DNA of 64,000 nt from Candidatus Palauibacter sp. (GTDB taxonomy: Bacteria > Gemmatimonadota > Gemmatimonadetes > Palauibacterales > Palauibacteraceae). Positions 10,967 through 29,346 of this stretch are shown one piece after another; position 1 is the first letter of the stretch, and each line of letters starts with the position of its first letter. Position numbers and translations under genes: made by a program. Where the stretch lies: NCBI RefSeq assembly GCF_965221685.1, contig NZ_OZ244907.1; one strand, 5' to 3'. A model generated the notes under the pieces. That model saw nothing but the letters and a program-made list of their open reading frames with translations, was not told the origin of the DNA and did no database searches.

Positions 10967-11003
10967 TCACGTGAACCCGCCGGTCGCGACGGCCCGCGGC
11001 CGG

Positions 11004-13873: not shown

Positions 13874-13896
13874 ACCTCCACCCCTCTTGCATCGTT

Positions 13897-13928
13897 CCGA
13901 TATATCGGGTACTATTTCGATATATCGA
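13897..13928. promoter_or_regulatory. Two perfect 12-bp palindromes (CCGATATATCGG and TCGATATATCGA), 20 bp centre-to-centre, in the PadR promoter region; putative autoregulatory operator pair
   Basis: Read directly at 13897-13908 and 13917-13928, 27-58 bp upstream of the PadR ATG (13955). They flank a TACTAT -10-like hexamer. This is an AT-rich island in a ~70% GC genome. Confidence 0.55.
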
Positions 13929-13954
13929 GACCGGTCGGAAGCGGGGGAGGTTGG

Positions 13955-14533: not shown

Positions 14534-14536
14534 GCG

Positions 14537-15034
14537 ATGTTCGAGATCGTCTTCCTGGGAGGCATCGCCGCCGTGATCTACCGGAAACGCGTGCGCGCGG
14601 GCGACTGGAGTCGGGGCGACTTCCACCGCGTCCTCGTCGCCGTGGGTCGCGCGGTGAGCCGTGCGGTGGCGACCGTGTCGAAGTCCTGGCCCGGCCTCCT
14701 GCGACAGTGCGCGGCCGATGTGAAGAGCCTTGCGGGCGACGTGACGGGCGTCGTCCGGGTCGGGACCCGGAAACCCCGCGCCCGCCGGATCCGGCACTCT
14801 CGCGTCAAGGTGCCCGCGGCGGACGTCGCCGCGACGAGCGAAGCCTTGACGAGAGCGGAGAGCCGGATCTTCTCCCGACTCCAGCGCCGCTACGTCGCCG
14901 GCAGGATCAGCTTCTCCGAGTACGTGGAGGGCGTACGGCGTCTTCGAAGAGAAGGCGCCGCGCTTCAGGGCCTGGGCGGCACGGCCCCGCCGCGCGCGGA
15001 CGGCGAGGCCGGGAGGCTGGCGGCGGAGCGCTGA
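14537..15034 (+). CDS. Hypothetical membrane-anchored protein with SHOCT-like C-terminal motif, co-operonic with PadR
   Basis: Begins 3 nt after the PadR stop. N-terminal TM helix (MFEIVFLGGIAAVIY). C-terminal RLQRRYVAGRISFSEYVEGVRRLRREG resembles the SHOCT short C-terminal domain. Confidence 0.4.
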   Translation: MFEIVFLGGIAAVIYRKRVRAGDWSRGDFHRVLVAVGRAVSRAVATVSKSWPGLLRQCAADVKSLAGDVTGVVRVGTRKPRARRIRHSRVKVPAADVAATSEALTRAESRIFSRLQRRYVAGRISFSEYVEGVRRLRREGAALQGLGGTAPPRADGEAGRLAAER

Positions 15035-15048
15035 CCGCCCCCAGCAGC

Positions 15049-16740
15049 CTAGCGGTGCCGCTCCCAGGGGCTGCGGGTGAAGTAGGACTCCGTCATCTCC
15101 TTGATCTGAGGCGCGAGGAAGATCAGCGCGATCAGGTTCGGGATGATGACGATGGCCAGGAAGATGTCCCCCAGCGACCACACCACGGCGAGCGGCAGCA
15201 CGGCCCCGACGAAGTGCATCGCGACGAACACGAGCTTGTACGGGATGATCGCACTCGGCCCGAAGAGGTAGTTCGCGCAGCGGTCCCCGTAGTAACTCCA
15301 TGAGATCGCGGTCGAGATCGCGAACAGGAAGACCGAGAAGATCACGATGTAGTGACCCCAGTCGCCGAGCGGCGACAGGCCGCGCTGGAAGCCCATCTGC
15401 GTGAGGGGCGCGCCGGTCTCGTAGGCCTGCCCGTAGAGGACGGCCAACTCCCGTCCGTCGTCGGCGATCGCGACGGACCGCGCCGGGTCGACGGCCCCGC
15501 TGAACGGCTGCGTCTGCGCCTCGTCCTCGAACAGCTGCGGCACGGAGACCTCGTGCCACGCGAGGTGGGGCTCGCTCGTCACGCCCGGCCGCCCGATCGT
15601 ATAGCGGATCGTTCCCGTGGGCTCCGTGGGCACGGAGCTTCCGCCCTCGTCGAGCACCACGTAGCTGATGTCCCCGCCTTCCAGTTGGATCGCGGTCGGG
15701 ATCTGCGAGTTCCACGCGCCCGTCATGATGATGACCAGCGCCGTCATCGTGACGATGACGATCGTATCGATGAACGGTTCGAGCAGCGCGACGACGCCCT
15801 CGGAGACCGGTTCGTCCGTCTTCGCCGCCGCGTGCGCGATCGGCGCGGACCCCTGCCCCGCCTCGTTCGAGAACAGTCCGCGCCGCACGCCCCACATGAG
15901 CGTGACGAGGAAGGCGCCAACCCCGGTGCCCGCCACGCCGGCGGTCGGGTTGAAGGCCTCGCGGAAGATGAGCGCGAAGGTCGCCGGCACCTCGCCGAGG
16001 TTCAGGATGATGATGATCATGGCGGCGGTCACGTAGACGATCGCCATGAACGGAGCGAGGATGCTCGTCACGCGGCCGATGCGCTTGATGCCGCCCAGGA
16101 TCACCAGGGCGACGATCGTCGAGGTCGTGAGACCGGTGATCCATGTGGCGATCCCGAACTCGGCGAGCATCGCGTCCGCGACCGTATTGGCCTGGTTCGC
16201 GTTCCCCGTCATGAACGCCGTCATCCCCAGCATGACGGCGAAGAACGCCGCCACGGGCTTCCAGCGCGGCCCGAGCCCCTTCTCGATGTAGTACATCGGT
16301 CCGCCCGACACCTTCCCGCTGTATTTCGCGGACGACTCGTCGACTTCGCGGTACTTCTGCGCCAGCGTGACTTCGCTGTACTTCGTCGCCATGCCGAGGA
16401 AGGCGGTCATCCACATCCAGAAGAGCGCCCCCGGACCCCCGAGGTGGATGGCGATCGCGGCGCCGGCGATGTTCCCGATGCCCACCGTGGCGCTGAGCGC
16501 GGTGGTCAGCGCCTGAAAATGCGACACGTCGCCCGGATCGTTCGGGTCGTCGTATCGACCCGTGGCCACGGCGACGCCGTGCGCGAACTTGCGGATCTGC
16601 GGCAGGCCGAGCCGGAGGGTGAGATAGGTCCCGATCCCGAGGAGGAGCAGGACCTGAAGCGTCAGGCGCTCTCCCCCGATCGTGATCCCGAACTGCGCGA
16701 CGTTCCGGTCGAGCCAGTCTACGATTGTGGCGAAGTCCAT
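15049..16740 (-). CDS. AGCS-family sodium:alanine (amino-acid) symporter
   Basis: Multi-TM protein with typical AGCS blocks (SATVGIGNIAGAA, GGPGALFWMW, SNEAGQGSAPIAHAAA). Confidence 0.85.
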   Translation of the reverse strand: MDFATIVDWLDRNVAQFGITIGGERLTLQVLLLLGIGTYLTLRLGLPQIRKFAHGVAVATGRYDDPNDPGDVSHFQALTTALSATVGIGNIAGAAIAIHLGGPGALFWMWMTAFLGMATKYSEVTLAQKYREVDESSAKYSGKVSGGPMYYIEKGLGPRWKPVAAFFAVMLGMTAFMTGNANQANTVADAMLAEFGIATWITGLTTSTIVALVILGGIKRIGRVTSILAPFMAIVYVTAAMIIIILNLGEVPATFALIFREAFNPTAGVAGTGVGAFLVTLMWGVRRGLFSNEAGQGSAPIAHAAAKTDEPVSEGVVALLEPFIDTIVIVTMTALVIIMTGAWNSQIPTAIQLEGGDISYVVLDEGGSSVPTEPTGTIRYTIGRPGVTSEPHLAWHEVSVPQLFEDEAQTQPFSGAVDPARSVAIADDGRELAVLYGQAYETGAPLTQMGFQRGLSPLGDWGHYIVIFSVFLFAISTAISWSYYGDRCANYLFGPSAIIPYKLVFVAMHFVGAVLPLAVVWSLGDIFLAIVIIPNLIALIFLAPQIKEMTESYFTRSPWERHR

Positions 16741-16985: not shown

Positions 16986-19184
16986 GTGGGTCCAGACAAC
17001 CGAATCCCCCACCGCATCGGGCGGCTGTGGGAACTCGCGAACGACCTCTCGTGGACGTGGAACCCGGAGGCCCCGGCCCTCTTCCGGGCCATCGATCCGC
17101 CGCTGTGGCGCCGCACGCGGCACAACCCCGTGGCGCTGTTGCGGACCGTCGGAGGCGAGCGCCTGCGCAGCCTGGCCGAGGATCCCGTCTTCCTCCGGAG
17201 ATACGACGCGGCGCTGGACGTCCGGCGTGACGCCGTGGTCGTCGGTCACGCGCCTGAAGCGGGGACAGCCGGGCACGCCGACAACATCCGGGCGGACGCC
17301 ACCCCGACCTGGTTCGACGAGCGCTATCCCGCGCTCCGCGACCTCCCGGTGGCGTACTTCTGCGCGGAATTCGCGTTGCACGAGTCCATCCCCATCTACT
17401 CCGGGGGACTCGGCGTGCTCGCGGGCGACCATCTCAAGGCGGCGTCGGAACTGGGGGTCCCCCTTGTCGGCGTCGGGCTGATGTACGCGCACGGCTACTT
17501 CGACCAGACGCTGGGGTCGGACGGCTGGCAGGAGGATGCGGACGACCCGCTCGACCCCGACCTGACCCCGCTGGAGCGGTTGCGGGGCGTGGACGGCGTC
17601 CCCTGGCTCGCTTCGATCCGCGGCGGGGGACGCCGCATCCATATCGGGGCGTGGAGGCTGCGCGTCGGGCGCGTCTCGCTGTACCTCCTCGACACGGATC
17701 TCGAGGAGAACGATCCCGCCGACCGGGGCCTCTCCCACCAACTCTACGCGGGCGGCGCGGATCACCGGCTGCGGCAGGAAGCGATCCTCGGCGTCGGCGG
17801 CGTGCGCGTGCTCGCTGCGCTCGGGATCGAGCCCGGGGCGTGGCACGCGAACGAGGGACACGCGGCGTTCATGATGGTGGAGCGCGTGCGCTGGCTGATG
17901 CGGGACGGCCGGTCCTTCGAGGACGCGGTGTCCCGGGTCCGGGCTTCGACCGTTTTCACGACGCATACGCCCGTATCTGCGGGTCACGACGTGTTCTCTC
18001 ACGCGCAGATGCGCGATTGGATCGGCGAGACGTTCTGGGAAGAGATCCCTCACCGCGAGGAGTTGCTGGCACTCGGTCTCCATCCGGACGACGAGGCGCA
18101 GGACCGGTTCCACATGACGGCGGCGGCGATCCGGCTGTCGCGACGCGTCAACGGCGTCTCCGCCAGGCACGGGCGCGTGACCCGGGAAATCTGGCGCGGC
18201 CTCTGGGGGGACCGTGCGGCCGGAGAGGTACCGATCCGGCACGTGACGAACGGGGTCCACCTCGCCACGTGGATGAGCGATGACATCGCCGGGCTTCTGG
18301 ACGAGTGGCTGCCCGCCGGGTGGCGATGCACGGGCGACGAAGCGATGTGGCGCGCGGTGCGCGACGTGCCGGCGCAGGCGCTGTGGCGCGTGCGGCGCCG
18401 GCTGAAGCTCCGGCTCCTCGACCTGATGCGCGACGAGGCCAGGCGCCGGTGGCCCGGCCATTGGCCGGAGTCGGCCCACCTCGCCGGAGCCGGCACGCTG
18501 ATGAGCCCCGAGCCGCTCACGATCGGATTCGCGCGGCGCTTCGCGACCTACAAGCGCGCGGACCTCATCTTCCGCGACCGTGAACGCCTGCTGGCGCTGC
18601 TCTCGGACCCCGCCCGCCCCGTGCAGTTGATCTTCGCCGGCAAGGCGCACCCGCGGGACGACGACGGCAAGCGCGTCCTCCAGCGCGTGTACGAGCATAC
18701 GCGCGATCCGGAGTTCGAGGGGAGAATCGCCTTTCTCGAGAACTACGGACTCCATGCGGCGCACGGTCTCGTCGAGGGCGTGGACCTGTGGCTCAACCTC
18801 CCCCGGGTCCCGCTGGAGGCGAGCGGGACGAGCGGGATGAAGGCCGCCCTCAACGGCGTCCCCCAGCTCGCGACCGCAGACGGCTGGTGGGAGGAGGGTT
18901 TCGAGGGCGACAACGGGTGGATCATCCCGCTCGCCCCCGCGACGGCGAGCGAGAAGGAGGTGGACGAGCACGACGCCGGACAGCTCTTCCGGCTCCTGGA
19001 GGAGGAGGTCATCCCCCTCTACTACGATCGGCCCGGCGCCGGGGCCGCGGACGACGCCCCGGCAAGCTGGCTCGCGCCCGCCCGGCGCGCGATCGAGGTG
19101 GCCGGCGCGCGATTCACGGCGGGCCGCATGGTGCGGGACTACGCGCGGGACTACTACGTCCCGTCGCTGCGCGGCGACGACTGA
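16986..19184 (+). CDS. glgP: Alpha-glucan phosphorylase (GT35, GlgP-like, DUF3417-type N-terminus)
   Basis: WTWNPEA ... YFCAEFALHESIPIYSGGLGVLAGDHLK ... pyridoxal-phosphate phosphorylase core. GTG start. Confidence 0.85.
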   Translation: MGPDNRIPHRIGRLWELANDLSWTWNPEAPALFRAIDPPLWRRTRHNPVALLRTVGGERLRSLAEDPVFLRRYDAALDVRRDAVVVGHAPEAGTAGHADNIRADATPTWFDERYPALRDLPVAYFCAEFALHESIPIYSGGLGVLAGDHLKAASELGVPLVGVGLMYAHGYFDQTLGSDGWQEDADDPLDPDLTPLERLRGVDGVPWLASIRGGGRRIHIGAWRLRVGRVSLYLLDTDLEENDPADRGLSHQLYAGGADHRLRQEAILGVGGVRVLAALGIEPGAWHANEGHAAFMMVERVRWLMRDGRSFEDAVSRVRASTVFTTHTPVSAGHDVFSHAQMRDWIGETFWEEIPHREELLALGLHPDDEAQDRFHMTAAAIRLSRRVNGVSARHGRVTREIWRGLWGDRAAGEVPIRHVTNGVHLATWMSDDIAGLLDEWLPAGWRCTGDEAMWRAVRDVPAQALWRVRRRLKLRLLDLMRDEARRRWPGHWPESAHLAGAGTLMSPEPLTIGFARRFATYKRADLIFRDRERLLALLSDPARPVQLIFAGKAHPRDDDGKRVLQRVYEHTRDPEFEGRIAFLENYGLHAAHGLVEGVDLWLNLPRVPLEASGTSGMKAALNGVPQLATADGWWEEGFEGDNGWIIPLAPATASEKEVDEHDAGQLFRLLEEEVIPLYYDRPGAGAADDAPASWLAPARRAIEVAGARFTAGRMVRDYARDYYVPSLRGDD

Positions 19185-19240: not shown

Positions 19241-19993
19241 CTAGGGGGGCGGAAGCAGCTCGTCGAGGTAGCGGAGGAGCATGTTGCGCCACGTGGGCCA
19301 GTCGTGGTGCCACTCCTCGCCCCAGTCGTCCATCCGGTTCGGCACGCCCTTTTGCCCCAGGAGCGAGGCCGCGCGCCAGGACTCGCCGATATCCTCCGCC
19401 CGCCCGCTCCCGGAGGCGAGGAGGACGAAACGCCGACGCAGCCGGTCGAGCGTCTCGCCCTCGAGTTGCGGCAGATGGTGCACGGGCGAGGCTCGGTAGA
19501 AGTCGCCCGTCGCTCTCGCCTCGACGCCGGCGTCGTCTTTCAAAAAGCGCTGGAGATCGTAGGTGCCGCTCATGCACACGGCATGCGAGAAGGCATCGGG
19601 GAACCGGCACAGCGCGGCGAGCGCGTTGAACGCTCCGATGGAGGAGCCTCCGACGATGACCTCGATCCCCGGATCGTTGCAGTCCTCCCGGATCATGGGG
19701 ACGAACTCGCGGTAGACGAACTCCTGAAACCGGTTCAGGACGGCCATGCGGTGTTCGGGGGTCCCCTCGCGTCCGAGCATGACGCGGCCCGCCACGCTGT
19801 CGCACGAATAGACCTTGATCCGGCCGGCCGTCAGGTAGTCCGCCACCGTGTCGATGACGAGAAAGCGCTCGATCTCCTCCGCATCTCCTCCGGCGGTGGG
19901 AAACATGAGGAAGGGCACGCCGACCTCGCCCCACCGCGCGACGTTGACCTCCTGTCCGAGACGATGCGACCACCAGCTGGCATTGAGTTTCAT
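19241..19993 (-). CDS. Esterase-family alpha/beta hydrolase (PF00756-like)
   Basis: GGSSIGAF nucleophile elbow and overall esterase-D/FrmB-like layout. ATG 19993 overlaps the stop of the upstream ATP-grasp gene (ATGA). The ORF-track N-terminal extension to 20488 is spurious. Confidence 0.6.
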   Translation of the reverse strand: MKLNASWWSHRLGQEVNVARWGEVGVPFLMFPTAGGDAEEIERFLVIDTVADYLTAGRIKVYSCDSVAGRVMLGREGTPEHRMAVLNRFQEFVYREFVPMIREDCNDPGIEVIVGGSSIGAFNALAALCRFPDAFSHAVCMSGTYDLQRFLKDDAGVEARATGDFYRASPVHHLPQLEGETLDRLRRRFVLLASGSGRAEDIGESWRAASLLGQKGVPNRMDDWGEEWHHDWPTWRNMLLRYLDELLPPP

Positions 19994-21267
19994 GAGGCGA
20001 GAATCGGCACGGCGCCGGGGGGTTCCTCCCGGCGGGCCGCCTGTATGCGGTCGAAGAAGAGGGCGGTGAACTCCTCGATCTCGTGATCGGGGTAGAGCGA
20101 GGCCACCTTCTTGCGCACCGCCTCGTGAGCCGCCTCGCTGCCGAAGAACTCGTCGGCCACCTCGTCCAGCTCCGGGAGGTGCGTCTCGCAGAACTCCACG
20201 AAGCGGTCGGTCTCGAACCTGGCCTCCGCGATCCCGGCGCAGGCTCGAACCCTCTCGCCGACCGACATCCCCGGACGGCAGGCATCGAGGAACGGCTGCC
20301 AATCGAGGTTGATGCGCATCCTGCGCCGGGTCGCCGCGCAGAAGAGGGACCAGCGGAGATTCGCCTTGATGAGCCACGGGAAGTGGTAGTGGAGCGAGGT
20401 GACCTGCGAATCCGGACAGGGGTTCGCGAAGTCGATCGGCATCCACCGTCCACCGCTGCGAAGCACCTCGCACGAGTTGAAGTCCCACCCGAAGAAGGCG
20501 TTGATCGTGAGCGTCGTGTCGCGGATCGCGCCGGCGTCCGTGGGCTCGAGGTGATCGCGCGCGACGGTGTAGCGGTCGTGCGCCGGGGCGCCGGGGTCGT
20601 AGAGCACGGCCCGCGTCTGGGGTCCCAGCCCGATGCAGCGGACGAAACGGTCGTGCTCCACCCCCTGCTGGAGGTGCATGACGAACTTGCCGCTCTCGTC
20701 GTAGGCGGCGCCGAGCGCCTCGTCGTCACCGATCCGCGACACGCCGCGCCAGCCACCGCCGTCGTAGGGCTTCATGAACACGGGATAGCCCAGGTTTCGC
20801 GCCACGGCGGGCAGGTCGAAGAGCCGCGCGTAGCGTTTCAGGGTGACCGCCAGATCGTCCTGCGGATCGTAGGACTTGGGCGGGATGAGCCACGTCCGCG
20901 GAACGGGGAGGCCCAGCCTCATCATCGCGCAGTAGGTGGAGTGCTTCTCCATCGACTGGACGCTCCACGGACTGTTGAACACGTAGAGCCCGTCCATGAT
21001 CACCGACTTCTTGATCCACTCCCGCGTCGGGAAAAACCAGTGCGTGAGGCGGTCGATGACGACGTCGTACTTCCCCTTCTGCTGCAGGTCGAAGGGCTCG
21101 ATCGTGACGTCCTCGATATGGAACCGGATCGTACCGTCGGACGAGGGGATCCGGGGGTTCATCCGTTCGAGGATCTCGCGGTAGGCGATGGGCCAGCAGA
21201 GGTCCGCCCCGAGCGAGAGGCCGATGCGGCGCGTGACCCCGCCCGCGGACGTCGACGGAGCCGTCAC
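19990..21267 (-). CDS. Divergent ATP-grasp-fold protein (ATP-grasp B)
   Basis: NSPW...KHSTYCAMMRLGLPVPRTWLIP ... YPVFMKPYDGGGWRGV ... resembles ATP-grasp B-loop and P-loop-like elements, but is unrelated in order to the three paralogs A/C/D. The family is not pinned down. GTG 21267 forms a GTGA overlap with the upstream esterase stop. Confidence 0.5.
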   Translation of the reverse strand: MTAPSTSAGGVTRRIGLSLGADLCWPIAYREILERMNPRIPSSDGTIRFHIEDVTIEPFDLQQKGKYDVVIDRLTHWFFPTREWIKKSVIMDGLYVFNSPWSVQSMEKHSTYCAMMRLGLPVPRTWLIPPKSYDPQDDLAVTLKRYARLFDLPAVARNLGYPVFMKPYDGGGWRGVSRIGDDEALGAAYDESGKFVMHLQQGVEHDRFVRCIGLGPQTRAVLYDPGAPAHDRYTVARDHLEPTDAGAIRDTTLTINAFFGWDFNSCEVLRSGGRWMPIDFANPCPDSQVTSLHYHFPWLIKANLRWSLFCAATRRRMRINLDWQPFLDACRPGMSVGERVRACAGIAEARFETDRFVEFCETHLPELDEVADEFFGSEAAHEAVRKKVASLYPDHEIEEFTALFFDRIQAARREEPPGAVPILAS

Positions 21268-22460
21268 TCGTAGACCATCCAGAGCGGGCCCGGGAAGAGC
21301 CACGACAGGCCCTCGCGCAGGCGGTCGCGCCAGTTCTCCCAGTTGTGGCCGTCGCGCGACTCGACGAAGCGCACGTCCGCGCCGCCGCGACGGAGAGCGT
21401 GTATCAGGGCTCGGTTCTCCGAGACCAGCGGTTCGTAGACGCCCACGGAGACGAACGCCTTCTCCGCGATGGCGGTCGGCTCGGCCCGGTACGCGTTCAT
21501 CATGTCGACGATGCGGTCGAAGACGGGGCCGCTCTCGTTGTCGCCGATATCCGTGAAGAGGAACGAGCCCGACTGGAGCAGGATACGGCCGAAGCGGCCG
21601 GGGTATTCGAGCGCGGCGTGGAAGGATGCGACGGCGCCCAGACTCGCGCCCATGAGGCCGCGCGACTCCGGATCCGGGAGCAGCGGATAGTCGCGTTCGA
21701 GACGCGGGAGCAACTCTTCGGCGACGAACCGGGCGTGCGCCGGATCGGCCGAGTATTCCGACATCCGATCGCCCGGGTGCAGAAGGGCGACGATCATCCG
21801 GGGGACCTCGAAGCGGTCGATCAGTCGGTCGAGCACGTGCTTCAGGCCGGCGTACTCGACGTAGTCCCCGCCGTCGTGCACGATCAGCAGCGGGTAGCGC
21901 CGGTTGGCGCGGAACTCCGCCGGACGGTACACCGTCACGTGACGGGCGGATTCGAGCGCCCTGCTCTCGACCGCGAGTTCGTCCATTTCGCCGGGCCGGA
22001 CCTCCTCGCTCTCACGGGCCCAGTCGGGGATCTCGTAGCCCCGTGCCTGCACGACCGAGTTCGCGCCGAACGGGTCGCGGGCGCGTTGGGGGTTCAGCGG
22101 ATCCTCGATCCATTCGGCGCGGCCGCGGGAGAGCACCTCGATCTTGTACTCCACCCGGGACTCGTCGGGGAGTTCGAGGGTGTAGCACCAGAGATCGGTT
22201 CCGTCCAGGCGGCGGAAGGGTGCCGAGGTCTGGAGTCCGTGCACCCAGTGTCGCAGGCGCACGGCGTCGGCGTGGCCCCGGTACACGAAGGTGTAGAGTG
22301 GCGGCTCGGCGAGGGGGAACTCGTTCGCATCGACGAACGCGTCGACCGCATCCGCCGCACCGAGACCCGAGACGAGCTGTTTCTCGAGCGCCGCGATCGC
22401 GGGCGAACGCGGCATCGACAGGTCGTACCCGTGTTCCCGGGCGCCGGCGTCGAATCGCAT
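21264..22460 (-). CDS. Esterase-family alpha/beta hydrolase with N-terminal E-set/CBM48-like beta-sandwich (enterochelin-esterase-like architecture)
   Basis: N-terminal domain: PLYTFVYRGHADAVRLRHWVHGLQTSAPFRRLDGTDLWCYTLELPDESRVEYKIEV, the pattern of CBM48/AMPK-beta-GBD and the Fes N-domain. C-terminal domain: LLIVHDGGDY ... GASLGAVASF nucleophile elbow ... DGHNWENW. Confidence 0.6.
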   Translation of the reverse strand: MRFDAGAREHGYDLSMPRSPAIAALEKQLVSGLGAADAVDAFVDANEFPLAEPPLYTFVYRGHADAVRLRHWVHGLQTSAPFRRLDGTDLWCYTLELPDESRVEYKIEVLSRGRAEWIEDPLNPQRARDPFGANSVVQARGYEIPDWARESEEVRPGEMDELAVESRALESARHVTVYRPAEFRANRRYPLLIVHDGGDYVEYAGLKHVLDRLIDRFEVPRMIVALLHPGDRMSEYSADPAHARFVAEELLPRLERDYPLLPDPESRGLMGASLGAVASFHAALEYPGRFGRILLQSGSFLFTDIGDNESGPVFDRIVDMMNAYRAEPTAIAEKAFVSVGVYEPLVSENRALIHALRRGGADVRFVESRDGHNWENWRDRLREGLSWLFPGPLWMVYE

Positions 22461-22468: not shown

Positions 22469-23464
22469 CTACGCCGCCGCGCGGAAGAGGACCCGGCGGC
22501 CCGTCAGATCGAGGCGCTCGACGCCGTCCACGCCGCTCCAGCCGTCGCCGGCCCGGTCGATGCGGCGGCCCGGGTCGAGGAGGACGCAGGAGGCCGGGGC
22601 GAAGCGGGCTGCGAGCCGTGCCCCCCGCGTCCGGTCGTCCAGCGCCAGGCGGGCCGAGGCGTGGGGAAGCGCGACGATCCCCTGGGCGATCCCGAGTCCC
22701 GCATCGAACACCTCGGGGTTCCCCTCCCCCCAGGGTGGCCGATCGTGAAAGAGGACGATGCGCTCCGTCAGCGCCATCGCGCCCGCCGAGCGGGCGATCA
22801 CGGTGCGCCCTTCGAGGAGTTCCCGTCCGCCGAAGAGGCGAAGCCGGCTGAGCAGATTCGAGACGTGCCCGCCCTCGACGACGACCAACTCGACCCCCTC
22901 GAGGCGCGCGTCCACCTCCCGTCGCTGCGACCGCACGGCATCGCGCTCATCCGGCGCCATGCGCTCTTCGAACTCCGAGCGAAGCTCGACCACGCGGTCC
23001 AGATGGCGGGCATCGAGGCAGCGAATCGCTTCGAGAGCCTCCTCCCGCTCGGCGGCGAGCACCGTCTCGTCTCCCCGCAGCCCGGTCAACTGCCGATGGG
23101 CGTCGATGAGACCGTGGAGCCGCAGGTTGTAGGCGCGGCGCAGCGCCCTGAGCCGGTTCCGGCTCTCCAGGTGCGCACGCGCGAGTTCCGCGTCCGCCTC
23201 GGCGATCCGGTCGGAGCGCCGATAGAGTTCGAGATCCACGACGCGATCCGCCAGGCGGGGATGGATGAGTCCTTCGTTCGCCTCCCGGTCCCGCCATCCG
23301 GCGGTGATGGCCGCGATCCGCGCGCCCGGCGACAGCGCGCCTCCGGCCTCCAGTTCCCGCACCACGTCGATGAGCGCAAGGTCGCCCCCTCGCGGACCCA
23401 GGAGGACGAGCCGGGACGGGGACCCGGCGTTGTCATTGACCCGACGCCTTCTCGACACCCTCAT
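22469..23464 (-). CDS. Peptidase S51-family (cyanophycinase / peptidase E family) serine hydrolase with N-terminal coiled-coil-like extension
   Basis: C-terminal class-I-glutamine-amidotransferase-like fold with VIARSAGAMAL (GxSAG serine motif of S51) and downstream His/Glu-containing blocks. The N-terminal ~150 aa are Arg/Glu/Ala-rich heptad-like. ATG 23464 forms an ATGA overlap with the upstream ATP-grasp stop. Confidence 0.55.
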   Translation of the reverse strand: MRVSRRRRVNDNAGSPSRLVLLGPRGGDLALIDVVRELEAGGALSPGARIAAITAGWRDREANEGLIHPRLADRVVDLELYRRSDRIAEADAELARAHLESRNRLRALRRAYNLRLHGLIDAHRQLTGLRGDETVLAAEREEALEAIRCLDARHLDRVVELRSEFEERMAPDERDAVRSQRREVDARLEGVELVVVEGGHVSNLLSRLRLFGGRELLEGRTVIARSAGAMALTERIVLFHDRPPWGEGNPEVFDAGLGIAQGIVALPHASARLALDDRTRGARLAARFAPASCVLLDPGRRIDRAGDGWSGVDGVERLDLTGRRVLFRAAA

Positions 23465-24684
23465 GCGGCGCGCACTCTCACCCAGCGTCCGACCGCGTCG
23501 AGCATTTCGCGCAGTTCGTCGTAGTCCGGGTGCCGCAGACGTAGCCAGGCGTTCGCCATGTATCCGGCCTCCACCGGCTGGGTGGGCGTACCGGGCGGCG
23601 GCAGGTGCGTGTCGATGATCCACTCCCCGAAGCGGGCTTCCACCTCGTCCAGACCCTCATACCCCGCGATCCGCCCATCGTTTTCGGGCCGCAGCGTCAC
23701 GATCCCCGCGGAGTACCGGCGCGACGCGTCCCGCAGTTTCCGGCCATGCACGATGCAGGCCGCCCACTCGCGGTACACATCCAGTTCGTTCGCCGCGCCG
23801 TAGAGGTCCCAGGCCCGGACGCCGGGCGGACGGCAACCGATCTCGGAGAATCTGAGTCCCTTCTCTCCGAAGAACCATTCCATGTGGGTGGCGGAGGTCC
23901 CGATCTCGAGCGCATCGATGACCCGCTGCCCCAGGTCCCGGACCTCCGCGTAGGCGTGAGCGGCGTCGATCCGGTTCGTGGCGATGAACTGGGGCGACAC
24001 CTCCCGCGTCCGCATCGCCTCGAGCACGTTCGGGTAGTAGTGGGTCATGAAATCGTGGACGATCACGCCGTCCACCGTCAGCGTGTCGTAGAAGGCCTCG
24101 TGTCCGTCCACGAACTCCTCGACGGCGACTTCGGCGCCATGCCCGACGCCGAGGCGCGGGAGCAGAGCCACAAGCTGCGCCTCATCGTCGACGCGATACG
24201 TGCCCGAGGCGCCCGCCCCGGCGCGAGGCTTGATGATGAGCGGATAACCGATCCTCCGGCCGAAACCGGCGATCTCCTCGGCGTCGCCTCCCCCCATGGA
24301 TTGAGCGGTCGCGATCCCCGCAGCGCGAAGGGCGTCCTTCATTGCCGGCTTGTCGCGGCACAGGTGCGCGGTCCTCACCGAGGTCCCGGCCAGTCCGGCG
24401 GCTTCCCGCACGCGGGCGACCGGAAGGATGTGGGCTTCCACCGTGGCCTCGAGGCGATCCACGGGTTGCCGCCGGTGGATCTCGTGAAGGGCGTGCGCGA
24501 GCGCGCCCTCGTCGCACACGGAGCCGACCTGCTCGTAGCAGGTGAGCCACCGGTGCAGATCCGGGCCGAGCGCCTCCACCGGGGCTTCGCCCACCGCCGA
24601 CACGTCCGCGCCGATCTCGTGCAGACCGCGCACGAAGTCCTTCTGGTTTCCGGGAAACAGGGGTTCAACGAATACGACGTGCAT
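23461..24684 (-). CDS. ATP-grasp ligase, L-amino-acid-ligase-like (paralog A)
   Basis: 407 aa from ATG 24684, homologous position to paralogs C and D. Motifs CRDKPAMKDALRAAGI, GYPLIIKP, VAVEEFVDGHE, THMEWF, EIGCRPPG. These resemble BacD/YwfE-type Lal (ARDKNKMRDAF ... THTE ... ESAARFAGW). Confidence 0.7.
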   Translation of the reverse strand: MHVVFVEPLFPGNQKDFVRGLHEIGADVSAVGEAPVEALGPDLHRWLTCYEQVGSVCDEGALAHALHEIHRRQPVDRLEATVEAHILPVARVREAAGLAGTSVRTAHLCRDKPAMKDALRAAGIATAQSMGGGDAEEIAGFGRRIGYPLIIKPRAGAGASGTYRVDDEAQLVALLPRLGVGHGAEVAVEEFVDGHEAFYDTLTVDGVIVHDFMTHYYPNVLEAMRTREVSPQFIATNRIDAAHAYAEVRDLGQRVIDALEIGTSATHMEWFFGEKGLRFSEIGCRPPGVRAWDLYGAANELDVYREWAACIVHGRKLRDASRRYSAGIVTLRPENDGRIAGYEGLDEVEARFGEWIIDTHLPPPGTPTQPVEAGYMANAWLRLRHPDYDELREMLDAVGRWVRVRAA

Positions 24685-24808
24685 TGCTTCGCCAACGACT
24701 CGTGGGAAAAACTTCACTTTGAGGGCCCGACATAGTACAGTCCCTGCTCTCAAACGCCAGCCCGTCCGGCGGCGGCCGTCCGGCCCGCCGCGGGAACCCG
24801 GAAGATCC
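24685..24808. promoter_or_regulatory. Shared 124-bp divergent promoter region between ATP-grasp paralogs A (minus) and C (plus), with an AT-rich core GGGAAAAACTTCACTTTGAGGG
   Basis: The only intergenic space inside the cluster larger than 20 bp. No ORF with a start and stop fits. The frame contiguous with C has no ATG. Confidence 0.4.
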
Positions 24809-26032
24809 ATGCTCAACGTCGCCTTCGTCGCCCCGTTCTATCTCCCTACCACGCTGCGCTTTCTGGAGGCCGCCGCGGGGCTCGCCGACGTGCGCCTCGG
24901 GGTCGTGACGCAGGAACCGCTCGAACGAACGCCGGCCGCCCTCCGGCAGCGGATCGCGGCGCACGTCCGGGTCGAGGACGCGCTGTCGGCGGAGGGCATC
25001 CACGTCGGGCTGCGCCGGCTCTCTGCCGACCTCGGCGGGATCGACCGTCTGCTGGGCGCGCTGGAGGAGCTTCAGGTACCGCTCGGGGAGCTGCGTGACG
25101 CCCTGGGGTTCGCCGGGATGGGTGGGGCCGCCGCGCGCAATTTCCGCGACAAGTCCCTGATGAAGGACGTGCTCCGGGCACACGGCCTGCCCTGTGCCCG
25201 CCACGCGCTGGTCCGCGATGAGGACGAGGCAACGGCCTTCTCGGATGCGACGGGCTTCCCCCTCATCGTGAAGCCGCCGGCCGGTTCCGGCGCCCGCGGC
25301 ACCTTCCGCGTCGAAACGTCGGCGCAGTTGCGCACGGCGATCGCGATGTCGCGGCCGAGCGGCGAGCGGCCGACGCTCGTCGAGGAGTTCGTCGTGGGCG
25401 AGGAACACTCCTTCGACGCGGTCTCGATCGGCGGGCGCCTCGTCTGGCATTCGATCAACCACTACCTGCCTTCCCCGCTCGAGGTGCTGCGCGAGCCGTG
25501 GATCCAGTGGTGCGTCCTCCTCCCGCGGGAGGTCGATTCGCCCCGGTACGAGGAGATCCGGCGCGTTGCCGGACCCGCGCTCGATGCGCTCGGGATGGAG
25601 ACGGGGTTGAGCCACATGGAGTGGTTCCGGCGGCCCGACGGTTCGGTGGCGATCTCCGAAGTCGGGGCCCGCCCCCCTGGAGCCCAGTTCGTCACACTGA
25701 TCTCGCAGGCGCACGACTTCGACCTCTACCGTGCCTGGGCCCACCTCCTGGTCTTCGACGAGTTCGATCCCCCGCCGCGCCCCTATGCGGCCGGCGCGGC
25801 CTATCTCCGGGGACAGGGGCGGGGCCCCGTGCGACGGGTGGCCGGCATCGAGGAGATCGCGAACGACCTCGGGCCGCTCTGCGTCGAGTGGCGCCTCCCT
25901 CGGGCGGGACAGGCGCAGAGCGCGTCGTACGAGGGAGAGGGCTACATCATCGTCCGCCATCCGCGCACCGAGGTCGTCGAGGAGGCGCTGGGGCGGATCA
26001 TCACCCGCGTACGGGTGGAACTCGCCAAGTAA
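24809..26032 (+). CDS. ATP-grasp ligase, L-amino-acid-ligase-like (paralog C)
   Basis: 407 aa from ATG 24809. FRDKSLMKDVLRAHGLP, GFPLIVKPPAGSGARG, LVEEFVVGEEHS, SHMEWF, EVGARPPG. Confidence 0.7.
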   Translation: MLNVAFVAPFYLPTTLRFLEAAAGLADVRLGVVTQEPLERTPAALRQRIAAHVRVEDALSAEGIHVGLRRLSADLGGIDRLLGALEELQVPLGELRDALGFAGMGGAAARNFRDKSLMKDVLRAHGLPCARHALVRDEDEATAFSDATGFPLIVKPPAGSGARGTFRVETSAQLRTAIAMSRPSGERPTLVEEFVVGEEHSFDAVSIGGRLVWHSINHYLPSPLEVLREPWIQWCVLLPREVDSPRYEEIRRVAGPALDALGMETGLSHMEWFRRPDGSVAISEVGARPPGAQFVTLISQAHDFDLYRAWAHLLVFDEFDPPPRPYAAGAAYLRGQGRGPVRRVAGIEEIANDLGPLCVEWRLPRAGQAQSASYEGEGYIIVRHPRTEVVEEALGRIITRVRVELAK

Positions 26033-26052: not shown

Positions 26053-27270
26053 ATGAACGTACTGATGATTTCGCCGGGTTACCCGGCCGAGATGACGTAT
26101 TTCACACGGGGGCTCGCGGAGGTGGGCGCGAACGTCATCGGCCTGGGCGATCAGCCCGGGTCGGCGCTGCCCGAGGTCGCCCGGACGAGCGTTTCCACGC
26201 ACCTGCAGGTGAGGTCGCTGGCGGATGAGGCGGACGTGATGCGGCAGGTCGCCGCGCTCGCCGAGAGCACCCGCATCGACCGCGTGGAGTGTCTCTGGGA
26301 GCCCTTCATGATCCTCGCGGCGCGGCTGCGGGAGATGCTGGAGCTGCCCGGGCCGACCGTCGCGCAGACGCTCCCCTTCCGCGACAAGGAAGTGATGAAG
26401 GACGTCCTCGACAGCGCGGGGATCCGGACGCCCCGCCACGGGAGGGCCACGAGCAGCGCCGAGTGCCGCGAGGTTGCGGAGCACGTCGGCTTCCCGCTCA
26501 TCGTGAAGCCCGTCGACGGGGCCGGCTCGGCCGACACGCACCGGGTCGATTCGGCGCGGGAGCTGGAGCGGATCCTTCCGGCTCTCCGGCACGTTCCGCA
26601 GGTCACGGTGGAGGAGTTCATCGAGGGCGAGGACATGACCTTCGACACGGTCACGGTCGGGGGTGTCGTCGCGCACTACAACATCTGCCGCTACTGGCCC
26701 CGTGCGCTCGAGTCGAAGACGCACGAGTGGCTCAGCCCCATCACCTATGCGCTGCGCGACGTGGAGGCGGATGATGTCGCCGCCGGACGCGAGATGGGGT
26801 TCGCCGTGCTCGCCGCGCTCGGATTCGAGACCGGCTACACGCACATGGAGTGGTACCGGACGGCGGACGGGGAGGCCGTGTTCGGCGAAATCGCCGCGAG
26901 GCCCCCCGGCGTGCGGACGGTCGACCTCATCAACTTTGCGAGCGACATCGACACCTATCGCGGGTGGGCCGAGGGCGTCGTGCACGCGAAGTGGTCGCAG
27001 CCGGTGGAACGGAAGTACAACGCCTGCTGGATCGTCAAGCGGGCGCGCGGGCAGGGCCGGATCCAGCGCATCGAGGGGCTCGGCCCCCTGCTGCAGGAGT
27101 ACGGCGAGCGTGTGTGCAGCCTCGATCTGCTCCCGGTCGGGTCGCCACGGCGGAACTGGCAGGCCACGCTCGTCTCCGACGGGATGATCTTCCTCCGGCA
27201 CCCCGACCTCGGGGCGCTGGAGACGATCGCCGGCGAGTTCGCGACGCGGCTGCAACTCTACGCGGCCTGA
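26053..27270 (+). CDS. ATP-grasp ligase, L-amino-acid-ligase-like (paralog D)
   Basis: 405 aa from ATG 26053, 20 bp after C. FRDKEVMKDVLDSAGIRTP, GFPLIVKPVDGAGS, TVEEFIEGED, THMEWY, EIAARPPG. Confidence 0.7.
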   Translation: MNVLMISPGYPAEMTYFTRGLAEVGANVIGLGDQPGSALPEVARTSVSTHLQVRSLADEADVMRQVAALAESTRIDRVECLWEPFMILAARLREMLELPGPTVAQTLPFRDKEVMKDVLDSAGIRTPRHGRATSSAECREVAEHVGFPLIVKPVDGAGSADTHRVDSARELERILPALRHVPQVTVEEFIEGEDMTFDTVTVGGVVAHYNICRYWPRALESKTHEWLSPITYALRDVEADDVAAGREMGFAVLAALGFETGYTHMEWYRTADGEAVFGEIAARPPGVRTVDLINFASDIDTYRGWAEGVVHAKWSQPVERKYNACWIVKRARGQGRIQRIEGLGPLLQEYGERVCSLDLLPVGSPRRNWQATLVSDGMIFLRHPDLGALETIAGEFATRLQLYAA

Positions 27271-29279: not shown

Positions 29280-29290
29280 CGCGGCGCGTC

Positions 29291-29305
29291 CGTCCGGACC
29301 GGACG
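29291..29305. promoter_or_regulatory. Inverted repeat CGTCCGG-A-CCGGACG in the 67-bp divergent glgB / glgA intergenic region
   Basis: Perfect 7-bp arms with a 1-nt spacer. Confidence 0.3.
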
Positions 29306-29346
29306 CCGTCCCTTGCAGCCACACATTCGCCACTTCGCGACGAAGT

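What the first reader, a model, noticed from the sequence alone, without database searches (positions are those of the whole stretch)
19990..22460. Esterase with CBM48/E-set-like N-domain translationally coupled to a divergent ATP-grasp protein and a second esterase
The 398-aa esterase (21264..22460) has an N-terminal beta-sandwich whose pattern matches the glycogen-binding CBM48 / enterochelin-esterase N-domain (…YTFVYRGHADAVRLRHWVHG…WCYTLELPDESRVEYKIEV). It is followed by a PF00756-type esterase fold. Its stop overlaps (GTGA) the start of ATP-grasp B, a 426-aa protein unlike A/C/D. B's stop in turn overlaps (ATGA) a second esterase. Tight coupling of ester-bond hydrolases with an ATP-dependent ligase inside a glycogen locus suggests an ester-forming/ester-cleaving cycle on a sugar-containing or trilactone-like substrate. 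B's family is unassigned from sequence alone.
Basis: partly seen in the sequence, partly recalled or inferred. Interest (0 to 1): 0.6.

Follow-up and report, generated by a model that had tools for sequence, protein, structure and literature searches.

The report
Glycogen-synthase-linked ATP-grasp and esterase operon
The esterase, ATP-grasp and second esterase genes are real and belong to an uncharacterised operon, conserved across many bacterial phyla, that sits next to or near glycogen synthase together with four ATP-dependent ligases and three serine hydrolases, hinting at an unknown ester- or peptide-based chemistry tied to bacterial glycogen.

Summary
Est1 (21264..22460, minus strand), ATP-grasp B (19990..21267) and Est2 (19241..19993) are coding and are joined by GTGA and ATGA overlaps. 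The coupling extends upstream: ATP-grasp A overlaps an S51-like hydrolase gene (ATGA), which ends 8 nt before Est1. B has an ATP-grasp fold (nearest solved: ArgX/LysX, Ddl) but matches no Pfam model. It defines a compact family of more than 6,000 proteins that stay 60-67% identical across at least seven phyla. In 80 related loci Est2 follows B in 75 and Est1 precedes it in 72. A bona fide glgA lies directly upstream of ATP-grasp A in 28 loci. Est1 is a Fes/CE1-type Ser-Glu-His esterase. Its N-domain fold matches AMPK-beta CBM48 and the Fes N-domain equally well. However, it keeps invariant Lys/Trp/Asn at three of the four AMPK glycogen-contact positions, where Fes has Arg/Ala/Ala. No siderophore genes are nearby. 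Best reading (moderate confidence): a cytoplasmic cycle that forms and cleaves ester or peptide bonds in association with glycogen. The substrate is unknown, and I found no prior description. The window matches Candidatus Palauibacter (Gemmatimonadota).

The parts
19241..19993 (-). Est2: 250-aa minimal PF00756 serine esterase with no N-domain. Its ATG overlaps B's stop (ATGA).
   Evidence: Sequence. PF00756 E=2.2e-7. Invariant GxSxG Ser118 and His230 in 23 orthologs. Follows B in 75 of 80 loci.
19990..21267 (-). ATP-grasp B: 425 aa with a GTG start. It founds an unnamed ATP-grasp family, with a LysX/Ddl-like core plus an all-helical C-terminal domain (about residues 296-414).
   Evidence: No Pfam hit. 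AlphaFold model pLDDT 79, pTM 0.82. Foldseek best hits ArgX 3vpb at 8e-8, LysX and Ddl/VanA. K166 and the GGGW loop align to Ddl. More than 6,000 homologs at 60-67% identity across phyla. Only 211 clusters at 50% identity reach E<=1e-30.
21264..22460 (-). Est1: 398-aa Fes/CE1-type serine esterase (Ser273, Glu343, His372). Its stop overlaps B's start (GTGA). The C-terminus is a conserved ...PGPLWMVYE.
   Evidence: PF00756 E=6.3e-25. Fes 2b20 E=1e-16 with the sequence and 1.2e-21 with the family profile. Invariant residues. The last residue is Glu in 65 of 71 loci.
22041..22313 (-). Est1 N-terminal beta-sandwich (about residues 50-140): an E-set/CBM48-like module with invariant K106, W117 and N134.
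   Evidence: Model pLDDT 89. Foldseek ties AMPK-beta CBM48 with the Fes N-domain. Pfam: Enterochelin_N in 24/24, CBM_20 in 18/24 and CBM_48 in 3/24, the last two sub-threshold. hhalign to the AMPK-beta1 CBM gives E=6e-4.
22469..23464 (-). S51-like hydrolase: 331 aa, peptidase E/cyanophycinase-type core with a helical insert of about 110 aa. Its ATG overlaps ATP-grasp A's stop (ATGA), and its stop lies 8 nt before Est1's ATG.
   Evidence: Junctions. PF03575 at 22.3 bits against a cutoff of 23.9. The profile aligns to peptidase E 6iru over the GGx..L and SAG motifs. Ser201 is near-invariant and His215 invariant. Present in 63 of 80 loci.
23461..24684 (-). ATP-grasp A: 407 aa, L-amino-acid-ligase-like, first gene of the minus-strand operon. 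In other phyla it lies directly downstream of glgA.
   Evidence: PF02222 E=3e-9. Best solved relative is the L-amino acid ligase 4wd3 at 2.8e-17, followed by 3vot and BacD. glgA to A is within 150 nt in 28 of 29 adjacent pairs.
24685..24808 (.). 124-bp divergent intergenic region between ATP-grasp A and ATP-grasp C, the presumed shared promoter region.
   Evidence: Start codons read. No sigma-70 consensus was found.
24809..26032 (+). ATP-grasp C: 407 aa, paralog of A and D.
   Evidence: PF02222 E=5e-12. 31% identical to A and D. Present in 33 of 80 loci.
26053..27270 (+). ATP-grasp D: 405 aa, paralog of A and C, 20 nt downstream of C.
   Evidence: ATPgrasp_N and ATP-grasp hits. 35% identical to A. 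Start read. Present in 41 of 80 loci.
29404..30867 (+). glgA, ADP-glucose-type glycogen synthase (start approximate). This is the glycogen gene that travels with the module in other phyla.
   Evidence: TIGR02095 462.6 bits against a cutoff of 328. Module-linked glgA genes in L081, L030, L017, L058 and L038 score 513-540 bits.
27258..29540 (-). glgB, branching enzyme (CBM48, alpha-amylase domain and C-terminal domain). Flanking glycogen gene.
16986..19184 (+). Alpha-glucan phosphorylase (DUF3417 type), convergent with Est2. Flanking glycogen gene.
   Evidence: TIGR02094 742.8 bits.

Best explanation
The three genes are the downstream half of a cytoplasmic five-gene operon with stop/start overlaps at three of its four junctions and an 8-nt gap at the fourth: ATP-grasp A, S51-like hydrolase, Est1, ATP-grasp B, Est2. 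Together with the divergent ATP-grasps C and D and with glgA, it forms a module conserved across many phyla. Shown: B is a catalytically plausible ATP-grasp enzyme of a new family. A, C and D resemble L-amino-acid ligases. Est1 and Est2 are PF00756 serine esterases with conserved nucleophile and His residues. The S51-like protein keeps the Ser and His of peptidase E. Est1 carries a CBM48-like beta-sandwich with AMPK-type Lys, Trp and Asn residues. The module is linked to glycogen genes in many phyla. Inferred mechanism: the ligases activate carboxylates, most likely of amino acids, as acyl-phosphates and join them to amine or hydroxyl acceptors. B sits between two esterases and recurs with esterases even in its sister family, so it is the best candidate for an ester-forming step of the VanA/Ddl or graspetide-ligase type. 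Est1 docks on alpha-glucan through its N-domain and hydrolyses the ester. Est2 is a second esterase, and the S51-like enzyme cleaves a peptide or isopeptide bond. The net result would be a synthesis-and-breakdown cycle for an ester- or peptide-containing compound attached to glycogen or handled at the glycogen granule. The synthetic and degradative genes are co-transcribed, as in glgBXCAP. The chemical identity of the substrate is unknown.
For: Junction overlaps. B fold and ATP loop. B's invariant acidic and Asn residues (E267, D279, N282) lie on the hairpin that carries the Mg ligands in Ddl (inference). Est1 triad and Fes/CE1 relatives, including CBM48-bearing feruloyl esterases (6rzn, 8bbp, 7b5v, 6ne9) that act on esterified polysaccharide. 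N-domain fold and residues, with AMPK contact residues taken from PMC4032982. Synteny in 80 loci. Module glgA genes pass TIGR02095. L081 shows overlapping glgA, A, S51-like and Est1 genes. In the sister family of B, esterase-B' pairs lie next to glgC (L084, L086) or B' follows an S51 gene (L083). None of the module proteins has a signal-peptide-like N-terminus. A resembles L-amino acid ligases.
Against: No enzyme activity, substrate or glycogen binding has been shown. The N-domain passes a curated threshold only for Enterochelin_N, and CBM_20/CBM_48 hits are sub-threshold. hhalign to the AMPK CBM has only 28% probability. The N150-to-N134 match comes from my ungapped extension of that alignment. 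The fourth AMPK contact (W100) has no clear counterpart, since W72 lies five residues away in the alignment. K106, W117 and N134 could be conserved for structural reasons. glgA lies within 10 kb in only 23 of 35 full-flank loci, and three sister-family B' genes stand alone. ATP-grasp enzymes normally form amides. Ester formation is the exception, and no acylated glycogen is on record in the searched literature.
Confidence: 0.4

Rival explanations
1. The module makes a free small peptide or depsipeptide, or a cyanophycin-like reserve. The four ATP-grasp ligases would assemble a soluble oligopeptide or poly-amino-acid (nitrogen reserve, osmolyte or signal), and the S51-like enzyme and the esterases would recycle it. 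The link to glycogen genes would then reflect only co-regulation of storage metabolism. Est1's N-domain would be structural, or would merely localise the enzyme.
For: A, C and D resemble L-amino acid ligases that make free dipeptides. The S51 family contains peptidase E and cyanophycinase. B's best PDB sequence hit is the ATP-grasp domain of cyanophycin synthetase, though only over the ATP loop. The module splits into S51-Est1-B-Est2 and glgA-A(+D) sub-blocks in Steroidobacteraceae. About a third of full-flank loci lack glgA within 10 kb.
Against: This does not explain two PF00756 esterases (a family known for esters and thioesters, not peptides), the AMPK-type residues in Est1's N-domain, or the 4-nt overlap of glgA with ATP-grasp A. 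It also leaves unexplained the recurrence of glgC next to sister-family esterase-B' pairs.
Confidence: 0.3
2. B modifies a protein C-terminus. In the manner of LysX/ArgX (which act on LysW) or RimK (which acts on ribosomal protein S6), B would ligate one or more amino acids onto the nearly invariant C-terminal glutamate of Est1. This would use Est1 as a carrier, or would regulate it.
For: B's top structural hits are ArgX-LysW and LysX, and its top NCBIfam hits are LysX and RimK. Est1 ends in ...(V/I)YE in 65 of 71 loci plus 2 with Asp, whereas the C-termini of Est2, S51-like and B vary freely. Est1's stop overlaps B's start.
Against: The similarity to LysX is no better than to Ddl (12-17% identity). 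Est1 is a full-size enzyme and not a small acidic carrier. Four of 71 loci, and P0216 (which ends ...VYY), lack the acidic end. The tail may simply pack into the fold. Sister-family B' genes occur without any esterase.
Confidence: 0.1
3. Est1 is a true enterochelin (Fes-type) esterase that releases iron from a catecholate trilactone, and the ligases build the siderophore.
For: Fes is the closest characterised homolog of Est1. Many databases label the orthologs 'enterochelin esterase family'. Enterochelin_N is the only N-domain model at threshold.
Against: Est1 scores 120.6 bits against the 222-bit cutoff of the Fes equivalog model. No NRPS, isochorismate or DHB genes, TonB receptor or Fep-type transporter appears among the annotated ORFs of the window or in the conserved module. 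Fes lacks the K/W/N residues and has a 17-aa insertion at that site. The conserved partners are glgA, glgB, glgP and glgC.
Confidence: 0.03

Closest known systems
Enterochelin esterase Fes (PF11806 + PF00756; PDB 2b20, 3c87, 3mga)
   Same: Same two-domain architecture: an N-terminal E-set beta-sandwich followed by a PF00756 alpha/beta hydrolase. Both are cytoplasmic. The GxSxG Ser, the Glu and the C-terminal His align. The linker motif DPLNPQ is shared.
   Different: Est1 scores 120.6 bits against the 222-bit equivalog cutoff. There is no siderophore context. Fes has a 17-aa insertion and R, A and A where Est1 has invariant K106, W117 and N134. Est1 has a conserved ...PGPLWMVYE C-terminal tail.
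CE1 feruloyl esterases with an N-terminal CBM48 (PDB 6rzn/8bbp wtsFae1B; 7b5v; 6ne9/6mot)
   Same: A CBM48 beta-sandwich fused to a PF00756-type esterase that removes acyl esters from a polysaccharide. Both domains match Est1.
   Different: Those enzymes act on xylan, typically in polysaccharide degradation (background knowledge). Est1 has no signal peptide and sits in a glycogen-synthase operon with ATP-dependent ligases. Catalytic-domain similarity is somewhat weaker than to Fes.
AMPK-beta / SEX4-type CBM48 glycogen- and starch-binding modules (PDB 1z0m, 4yee, 2f15, 3nme)
   Same: Top-ranked fold match (6b2e_B at E=4.5e-4). The AMPK contact residues K126, W133 and N150 align with invariant K106, W117 and N134.
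   Different: Pfam CBM_48 and AMPK1_CBM score below threshold. The counterpart of W100 is unclear. Binding is untested.
LysX/ArgX/RimK and D-Ala-D-Ala/D-Ala-D-Lac ligases (ATP-grasp)
   Same: B shares the three-domain ATP-grasp fold, the ATP-binding Lys and the Gly-rich loop. VanA-type members show that this fold can make esters (background knowledge).
   Different: Identity is only 12-17%. All curated family cutoffs are missed by a wide margin. B has an extra C-terminal helical domain of about 120 aa and long invariant segments (residues 72-108 and 279-298) with no counterpart in those families.
Cyanophycin synthetase / cyanophycinase, and the glgBXCAP logic of storage-polymer operons
   Same: An ATP-grasp ligase is paired with an S51-type hydrolase, and synthetic and degradative enzymes share one operon.
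   Different: There is no Mur-ligase (M) domain or CphA architecture. The S51-like protein is below the Pfam cutoff and carries a large helical insert. Two esterases are present, which cyanophycin systems lack.
L-amino acid ligases (RizA 4wd3, BL00235 3vot, BacD)
   Same: A (and its paralogs C and D) are the same size and are the closest sequence matches (E=2.8e-17).
   Different: Known L-amino acid ligases are single genes in antibiotic or dipeptide pathways. Here three paralogs are conserved together with glgA, B and three hydrolases.

Membership tests
PF00756 'putative esterase' (Fes, CE1, esterase D, Ag85 superfamily) | Score above the Pfam gathering threshold (22 bits) | tested here: met
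   Est1 88.8 bits, Est2 31.4 bits.
PF00756 'putative esterase' | Conserved GxSxG nucleophile and C-terminal catalytic His | tested here: met
   Est1 S273, E343 and H372 are invariant in 36 orthologs and align to Fes. Est2 S118 and H230 are invariant in 23 orthologs.
Enterochelin esterase Fes (NCBIfam NF007758 equivalog) | Score above the curated equivalog cutoff (222 bits) | tested here: not met
   Est1 scores 120.6 bits, covering only the catalytic domain.
Enterochelin esterase Fes | Enterochelin_N (PF11806) N-terminal domain | tested here: inconclusive
   25.0 bits in the full protein (below the 27.1 cutoff) and 29.7 bits for the isolated domain. Only profile positions 33-62 of 120 are matched. 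24 of 24 orthologs hit.
Enterochelin esterase Fes | Siderophore biosynthesis or uptake gene context | tested here: not met
   None among the annotated ORFs of the window or in the conserved neighbourhood of 80 loci.
CBM48 (glycogen/starch-binding module) | Score above the Pfam CBM_48 gathering threshold | tested here: not met
   Only 2 of 36 and 3 of 24 orthologs give sub-threshold hits (best E=0.0028). CBM_20 hits appear in 14 of 36 and 18 of 24, also sub-threshold.
CBM48 | CBM48-type beta-sandwich fold | tested here: met
   Model pLDDT 89. Foldseek prob 1.00 to AMPK-beta, Snf1, SEX4, CE1-CBM48, pullulanase and GlgB modules. The match to the Fes N-domain is equally good.
CBM48 | Sugar-contact residues of the AMPK-beta1 GBD (W100, K126, W133, N150; PMC4032982) | tested here: inconclusive
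   K106 and W117 are aligned by hhalign, and N134 by ungapped extension; all three are invariant or at least 90% conserved. W100 has no clear counterpart. hhalign probability is 28%.
CBM48 | Binding to glycogen, amylopectin or cyclodextrin | not testable with these tools
   Needs a pull-down or ITC experiment with the purified domain.
ATP-grasp superfamily (protein B) | Three-domain ATP-grasp fold | tested here: met
   Foldseek E=8e-8 to 2e-6 and prob 1.00 to ArgX, LysX, Ddl, VanA and PurK-type enzymes.
ATP-grasp superfamily (protein B) | ATP-binding Lys and Gly-rich loop | tested here: met
   GYPlFMK166PYDGGGW is invariant. It aligns to Ddl and to ATP-grasp A with hhalign probability 94%.
ATP-grasp superfamily (protein B) | Mg-binding acidic/Asn residues on the C-domain hairpin | tested here: inconclusive
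   Invariant E267, D279 and N282 lie on the predicted hairpin, but the spacing is D-x-x-N and not E-x-N. No residue-level structural alignment was available.
ATP-grasp superfamily (protein B) | Any Pfam ATP-grasp model above threshold | tested here: not met
   No Pfam family at E<=0.01, and none of the listed homologs carries a precomputed ATP-grasp Pfam hit.
LysX / RimK family | Score above the NCBIfam cutoffs (275.6 and 143.4 bits) | tested here: not met
   25.5 and 22.1 bits.
Peptidase S51 (peptidase E / cyanophycinase) | Pfam PF03575 threshold (23.9 bits) and the catalytic Ser and His | tested here: inconclusive
   22.3 bits. Ser201 in SAGAM is at least 90% conserved and His215 is invariant. 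The profile aligns to peptidase E over these motifs at E=0.02.
Glycogen synthase GlgA (TIGR02095) | Score above the curated cutoff (328.45 bits) | tested here: met
   Window glgA scores 462.6 bits. Module-linked glgA genes in five loci from other phyla score 513-540 bits.
Cyanophycin synthetase CphA | ATP-grasp G domain fused to a Mur-ligase M domain | tested here: not met
   All four ligases are stand-alone proteins of about 405-425 aa with no Mur-ligase hit.

The most novel reading that the evidence does not exclude
Bacterial glycogen, or a primer or granule component of it, is covalently decorated with ester-linked amino acids or short peptides. Dedicated ATP-grasp ligases would install them, with B forming the ester and A, C and D extending it. 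A CBM48-bearing esterase (Est1), a second esterase (Est2) and an S51-type peptidase would strip them off. This would be a previously unknown combined carbon and nitrogen reserve, or a chemical control of glycogen turnover, widespread in Gemmatimonadota, Myxococcota, Planctomycetota, Acidobacteriota and some Proteobacteria.
Probability: 0.2. Interest if true: 0.9.

Novelty: new variant of a known kind. Interest (0 to 1): 0.66.

Why it matters
Bacterial glycogen metabolism is considered essentially complete (GlgC, A, B, P and X, plus the GlgE route). Here, an operon conserved across many phyla places four ATP-dependent ligases and three serine hydrolases beside glycogen synthase, with overlapping stop and start codons between glgA and ATP-grasp A in at least one locus. 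One component (B) belongs to a family of more than 6,000 proteins that has no Pfam model. Another (Est1) is routinely labelled 'enterochelin esterase', although it fails the Fes equivalog cutoff and has no siderophore context. If the module acts on glycogen, it would reveal a new covalent chemistry on a storage polysaccharide. If it makes a free peptide, it would be a new ribosome-independent peptide pathway co-regulated with carbon storage. Either way the finding gives concrete, testable targets, and it would correct a widespread annotation.

Tried and rejected
1. Literature. Eight full-text searches found no description of the module or of acylated glycogen. They combined ATP-grasp, glycogen synthase/glgA, esterase/enterochelin esterase, operon, Myxococcus, Gemmatimonas, amidoligases and cyanophycinase, plus six phrases for acylated or aminoacylated glycogen (one search covered Palauibacter). 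The Iyer/Aravind 2009 amidoligase survey (PMC3268129), the most likely place for a prior mention, is not held.

2. Gene fusions as functional links. P0033 is B fused to Est2, but it is a single sequence from one contig. The other long hits (P0245, P0267, P0301, P0356) are visibly frameshifted translations. I did not use them.

3. Genes inserted between Est1 and B in some Myxococcota. These are Ser/Thr kinase-FGE fusions, RPE65, DUF4056 and a caspase-like protein. They are heterogeneous and are not module parts.

4. Defence system. No PADLOC hits for any of the seven proteins.

5. Promoter and terminator consensus scan. Nothing usable.

6. hhalign of the N-domain against the window's own GlgB CBM48. 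Probability was 2.4%, which is uninformative with a single-sequence template.

7. N-domain profile against PDB sequences. Only marginal hits: glucoamylase CBM20 at E=0.011 and Fes at 0.57.

9. Siderophore reading. Rejected on the equivalog score and on gene context.

Full report
**1. What is there**

The window is about 70% G+C, so I called genes by third-position GC. On the minus strand there is a run of five genes.

- ATP-grasp A: 23461..24684, 407 aa.
- An S51-like hydrolase: 22469..23464, 331 aa.
- Esterase Est1: 21264..22460, 398 aa.
- ATP-grasp B: 19990..21267, 425 aa, GTG start.
- Esterase Est2: 19241..19993, 250 aa.

The junctions are as follows.

- A to the S51-like gene: ATGA overlap.
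- The S51-like gene to Est1: 8 nt.
- Est1 to B: GTGA overlap.
- B to Est2: ATGA overlap.

Divergent from A, across 124 bp, lie ATP-grasp C (24809..26032) and ATP-grasp D (26053..27270).

The block is flanked by an alpha-glucan phosphorylase gene (16986..19184) on one side. On the other side are glgB (27258..29540), glgA (about 29404..30867) and a GH57 enzyme (32291..34282).

**2. Origin and conservation**

B's closest relatives are from Candidatus Palauibacter, a Gemmatimonadota lineage; L001 is 97% identical.

B has more than 6,000 homologs that stay 60-67% identical across many phyla. By record title these are Gemmatimonadota, Myxococcota, Gamma- and Alphaproteobacteria, Planctomycetota, Eisenbacteria, Actinomycetota and Acidobacteriota. 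None of the listed homologs carries a Pfam domain for the B portion. An exhaustive HMMER scan of 1.84 billion representatives found only 211 clusters at E<=1e-30. The family is therefore compact and distinct.

I ran tblastn with the window's proteins against 80 related loci. The numbers of loci carrying each gene were as follows.

| Gene | Loci (of 80) |
|---|---|
| Est2 | 75 |
| Est1 | 72 |
| S51-like | 63 |
| ATP-grasp A | 53 |
| ATP-grasp D | 41 |
| glgA | 37 |
| ATP-grasp C | 33 |

In the 35 loci with full 10-kb flanks the counts were 34, 34, 32, 32, 27, 23 and 20.

Spacing is tight. Est1 to B is within 150 nt in 61 of 72 adjacent pairs. B to Est2 is within 150 nt in 73 of 75. glgA to A is within 150 nt in 28 of 29.

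The glgA that travels with the module passes the curated TIGR02095 cutoff in every locus I tested (513-540 bits against 328). These were five loci, from Myxococcota, Planctomycetota, Gammaproteobacteria and one MAG of unstated taxon (L081). In L081 the called genes glgA, A, the S51-like gene and Est1 overlap each other by 4-7 nt. The glycogen context is therefore a conserved property of the module and not an accident of this window.

**3. Protein B**

B has no Pfam hit. Its NCBIfam hits are far below cutoff: LysX at 25.5 bits against 275.6, and RimK at 22.1 against 143.4.

An AlphaFold model built from 40 homologs has pLDDT 79 and pTM 0.82. Its best matches among solved structures are ArgX/LysX and many D-Ala-D-Ala ligases and VanA (E from 8e-8, probability 1.00, 12-17% identity). 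The model shows an extra all-helical C-terminal domain (about residues 296-414).

The invariant segment GYPxFMK166PYDGGGW aligns to the ATP-binding Lys and Gly-rich loop of Ddl and of ATP-grasp A (hhalign probability 94%, over only 42 residues). Invariant E267, D279 and N282 sit on the hairpin where Ddl carries its Mg ligands. That placement is my inference.

B is thus an ATP-grasp enzyme, probably active, belonging to a new family. A, C and D are mutual paralogs (31-35% identity), and A's nearest solved relatives are L-amino-acid ligases (4wd3 at E=2.8e-17).

**4. Est1**

The catalytic domain is PF00756 (E=6.3e-25). The closest solved homolog is Fes, followed by CE1 feruloyl esterases, several of which carry an N-terminal CBM48. 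Ser273 (GASLG), Glu343 and His372 are invariant in 36 orthologs and align with the Fes residues.

Est1 fails the Fes equivalog model (120.6 bits against 222). There is no siderophore gene among the annotated ORFs of the window or in the conserved neighbourhood.

For the N-domain, sequence models give the following.

- Enterochelin_N: at or near threshold in all orthologs.
- CBM_20: sub-threshold, in 14 of 36 and 18 of 24 orthologs.
- CBM_48, GlgB_N, Alpha-amylase_N and AMPK1_CBM: a few sub-threshold hits each.

A confident model of the isolated domain (pLDDT 89) matches two groups of folds equally well.

- AMPK-beta CBM48: 6b2e at E=4.5e-4; also 4yee, 2f15 and Snf1.
- Fes N-domain: 3c8d at E=5.3e-4.

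Next come the SEX4, CE1-esterase, pullulanase and GlgB CBM48 modules and the STBD1 CBM20. Fold alone therefore cannot decide between the two readings.

Residues give more information. The AMPK-beta1 glycogen-binding domain contacts carbohydrate through W100, K126, W133 and N150 (PMC4032982). I checked the AMPK sequence I used against 1z0m. The mapping is as follows.

| AMPK-beta1 contact | Est1 residue | Basis | Fes residue at that position |
|---|---|---|---|
| K126 | K106 (invariant) | hhalign, E=6e-4, probability 28% | Arg |
| W133 | W117 (at least 90% conserved) | same hhalign alignment | Ala |
| N150 | N134 (invariant; NSVVQA against NNIIQV) | my ungapped extension of that alignment | Ala |
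| W100 | unclear; nearest Trp (W72) is five positions away | | not assessed |

The Fes residues come from the HMMER alignment, which also shows a 17-residue insertion in Fes at this site.

Est1's N-domain is thus a CBM48-like module that keeps three of the four AMPK-type sugar-platform residues, which Fes lacks. This suggests glucan binding but does not prove it.

**5. Est2 and the S51-like protein**

Est2 is a minimal PF00756 esterase with invariant Ser118 and His230.

The S51-like protein is just under the Pfam cutoff (22.3 bits against 23.9). Its family profile aligns to peptidase E over the GGx..L and SAG motifs. Ser201 is at least 90% conserved and His215 is invariant. It carries a helical insert of about 110 residues.

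None of the module proteins has a signal-peptide-like N-terminus.

**6. The sister family of B**

Full-length relatives at 35-46% identity show related contexts.

- L083: an S51 peptidase gene ends 6 nt before B'.
- L084: a PF00756-like gene is followed directly by B', beside a divergent, split glgC (310 and 266 bits to glucose-1-phosphate adenylyltransferase).
- L086: a glgC-like gene lies upstream, followed by PPK2, two PF00756 esterases (360 and 246 aa) and then B'.
- L085, L087 and L088: B' stands alone.

The trio of a B-type ligase with PF00756 esterases, and the vicinity to glycogen genes, therefore recur beyond the main family.

**7. Interpretation**

The following points are shown.

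- The operon is real, conserved and translationally coupled.
- B is a new ATP-grasp family.
- Est1 is a Fes/CE1-type esterase with a CBM48-like module.
- The link to glgA and glgC recurs across phyla.

The rest is inferred. The ligases would activate carboxylates, probably of amino acids, as acyl-phosphates. B, bracketed by esterases, is the best candidate for forming an ester, as VanA and the graspetide ligases do within this fold. Est1 would be targeted to alpha-glucan and would hydrolyse that ester. Est2 and the S51-like enzyme would complete the breakdown. Co-transcription of synthetic and degradative enzymes mirrors glgBXCAP and the cyanophycin genes cphA/cphB. I put about 0.4 on this glycogen-associated ester or peptide cycle.

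The main rival, at 0.3, is a free peptide or depsipeptide pathway that is merely co-regulated with glycogen.

A further lead is that Est1 ends in ...(V/I)YE-COOH in 65 of 71 loci, while the other proteins' C-termini vary freely. B's nearest structural relatives act on protein C-terminal glutamates. B might therefore modify Est1 itself (0.1).

The siderophore reading is unlikely (0.03).

**8. Novelty**

I found no description of the module, and none of acylated glycogen, in the searchable literature.

The parts belong to known superfamilies, so I class this as a new variant of a known kind. If the glycogen-decoration reading holds (about 0.2), it would be categorically new chemistry on a storage polysaccharide.

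Noticed in passing
window 5857..5930 (-), upstream of ORF 2054..5902 (-): A SAM-II (SAM_alpha, RF00521) riboswitch (48.8 bits, gathering score 36) sits directly upstream of a 1282-aa B12-dependent methionine synthase (MetH domains PF02574, PF00809, PF02607, PF02310, PF02965). Rfam describes the family as alpha-proteobacterial, but this genome is Gemmatimonadota.
   Followed up: partly
window 21264..21290 (-), the Est1 C-terminus; 71 related loci: Est1 terminates exactly at a conserved ...PGPLWMVYE. The last residue is Glu in 65 of 71 loci (Asp in 2). The C-termini of Est2, the S51-like protein and B are variable. This is suggestive because LysX- and RimK-type ATP-grasps act on protein C-terminal Glu residues.
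   Followed up: partly
All five minus-strand genes are therefore coupled, by three 4-nt overlaps and one 8-nt gap.
   Followed up: yes
L031, L034, L038, L044, L051, L054, L063, L079 (Steroidobacteraceae and other Gammaproteobacteria): Here the module is split into two blocks a few kb apart: S51-Est1-B-Est2, and D(-) with glgA-A(+). C is often missing. This suggests two sub-modules, with A (and D) most tightly tied to glgA.
   Followed up: partly
L086:3476-7562; L084:6241-11311; L083:5305-7991: Sister-family B' genes (35-46% identity) sit after two PF00756 esterases, with PPK2 directly upstream and a glgC-like gene nearby (L086). In L084, B' follows an esterase-like gene next to a split (frameshifted?) glgC. 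In L083, B' follows a 486-aa S51 peptidase.
   Followed up: partly
L081:12060-15981: In one MAG (GCA_942491735.1; taxon not stated in the record) the module is followed on the opposite strand by an alpha/beta hydrolase, an MBOAT acyltransferase, an unknown protein and a methyltransferase. An MBOAT next to the module could be relevant to acylation, but it is not conserved in the other loci.
   Followed up: no
window 9087..16740 and 45221..61218: The window is rich in peptide and amino-acid metabolism genes. These include two S9 prolyl-oligopeptidase-family proteins (10641..13097, 48677..50863), M1 and M24 peptidases, an amidohydrolase, an MR/MLE enolase-superfamily protein (9087..10157) and a Na+:alanine symporter (15049..16740) next to glgP. 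The symporter-glgP flank is conserved only within Palauibacter-like Gemmatimonadota.
   Followed up: no
P0033 (723 aa, ENA contig of 17.7 kb): An apparent natural fusion of B (N-terminal) with Est2 (C-terminal) through a linker of about 55 aa. It is a single sequence, so it may be a lost stop codon or a sequencing error. The other long 'fusions' are frameshift artefacts of high-GC contigs.
   Followed up: partly
B residues 82-103 and 283-289 (window about 20959..21024 and 20401..20421, minus strand): The segments of B with the lowest model confidence (pLDDT below 50) are among its most conserved (invariant R82, E83, W84, I85, K86, Y95, V96, N98, P100, W101, and C284-W298). They are likely mobile substrate- or partner-binding loops.
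   Followed up: no
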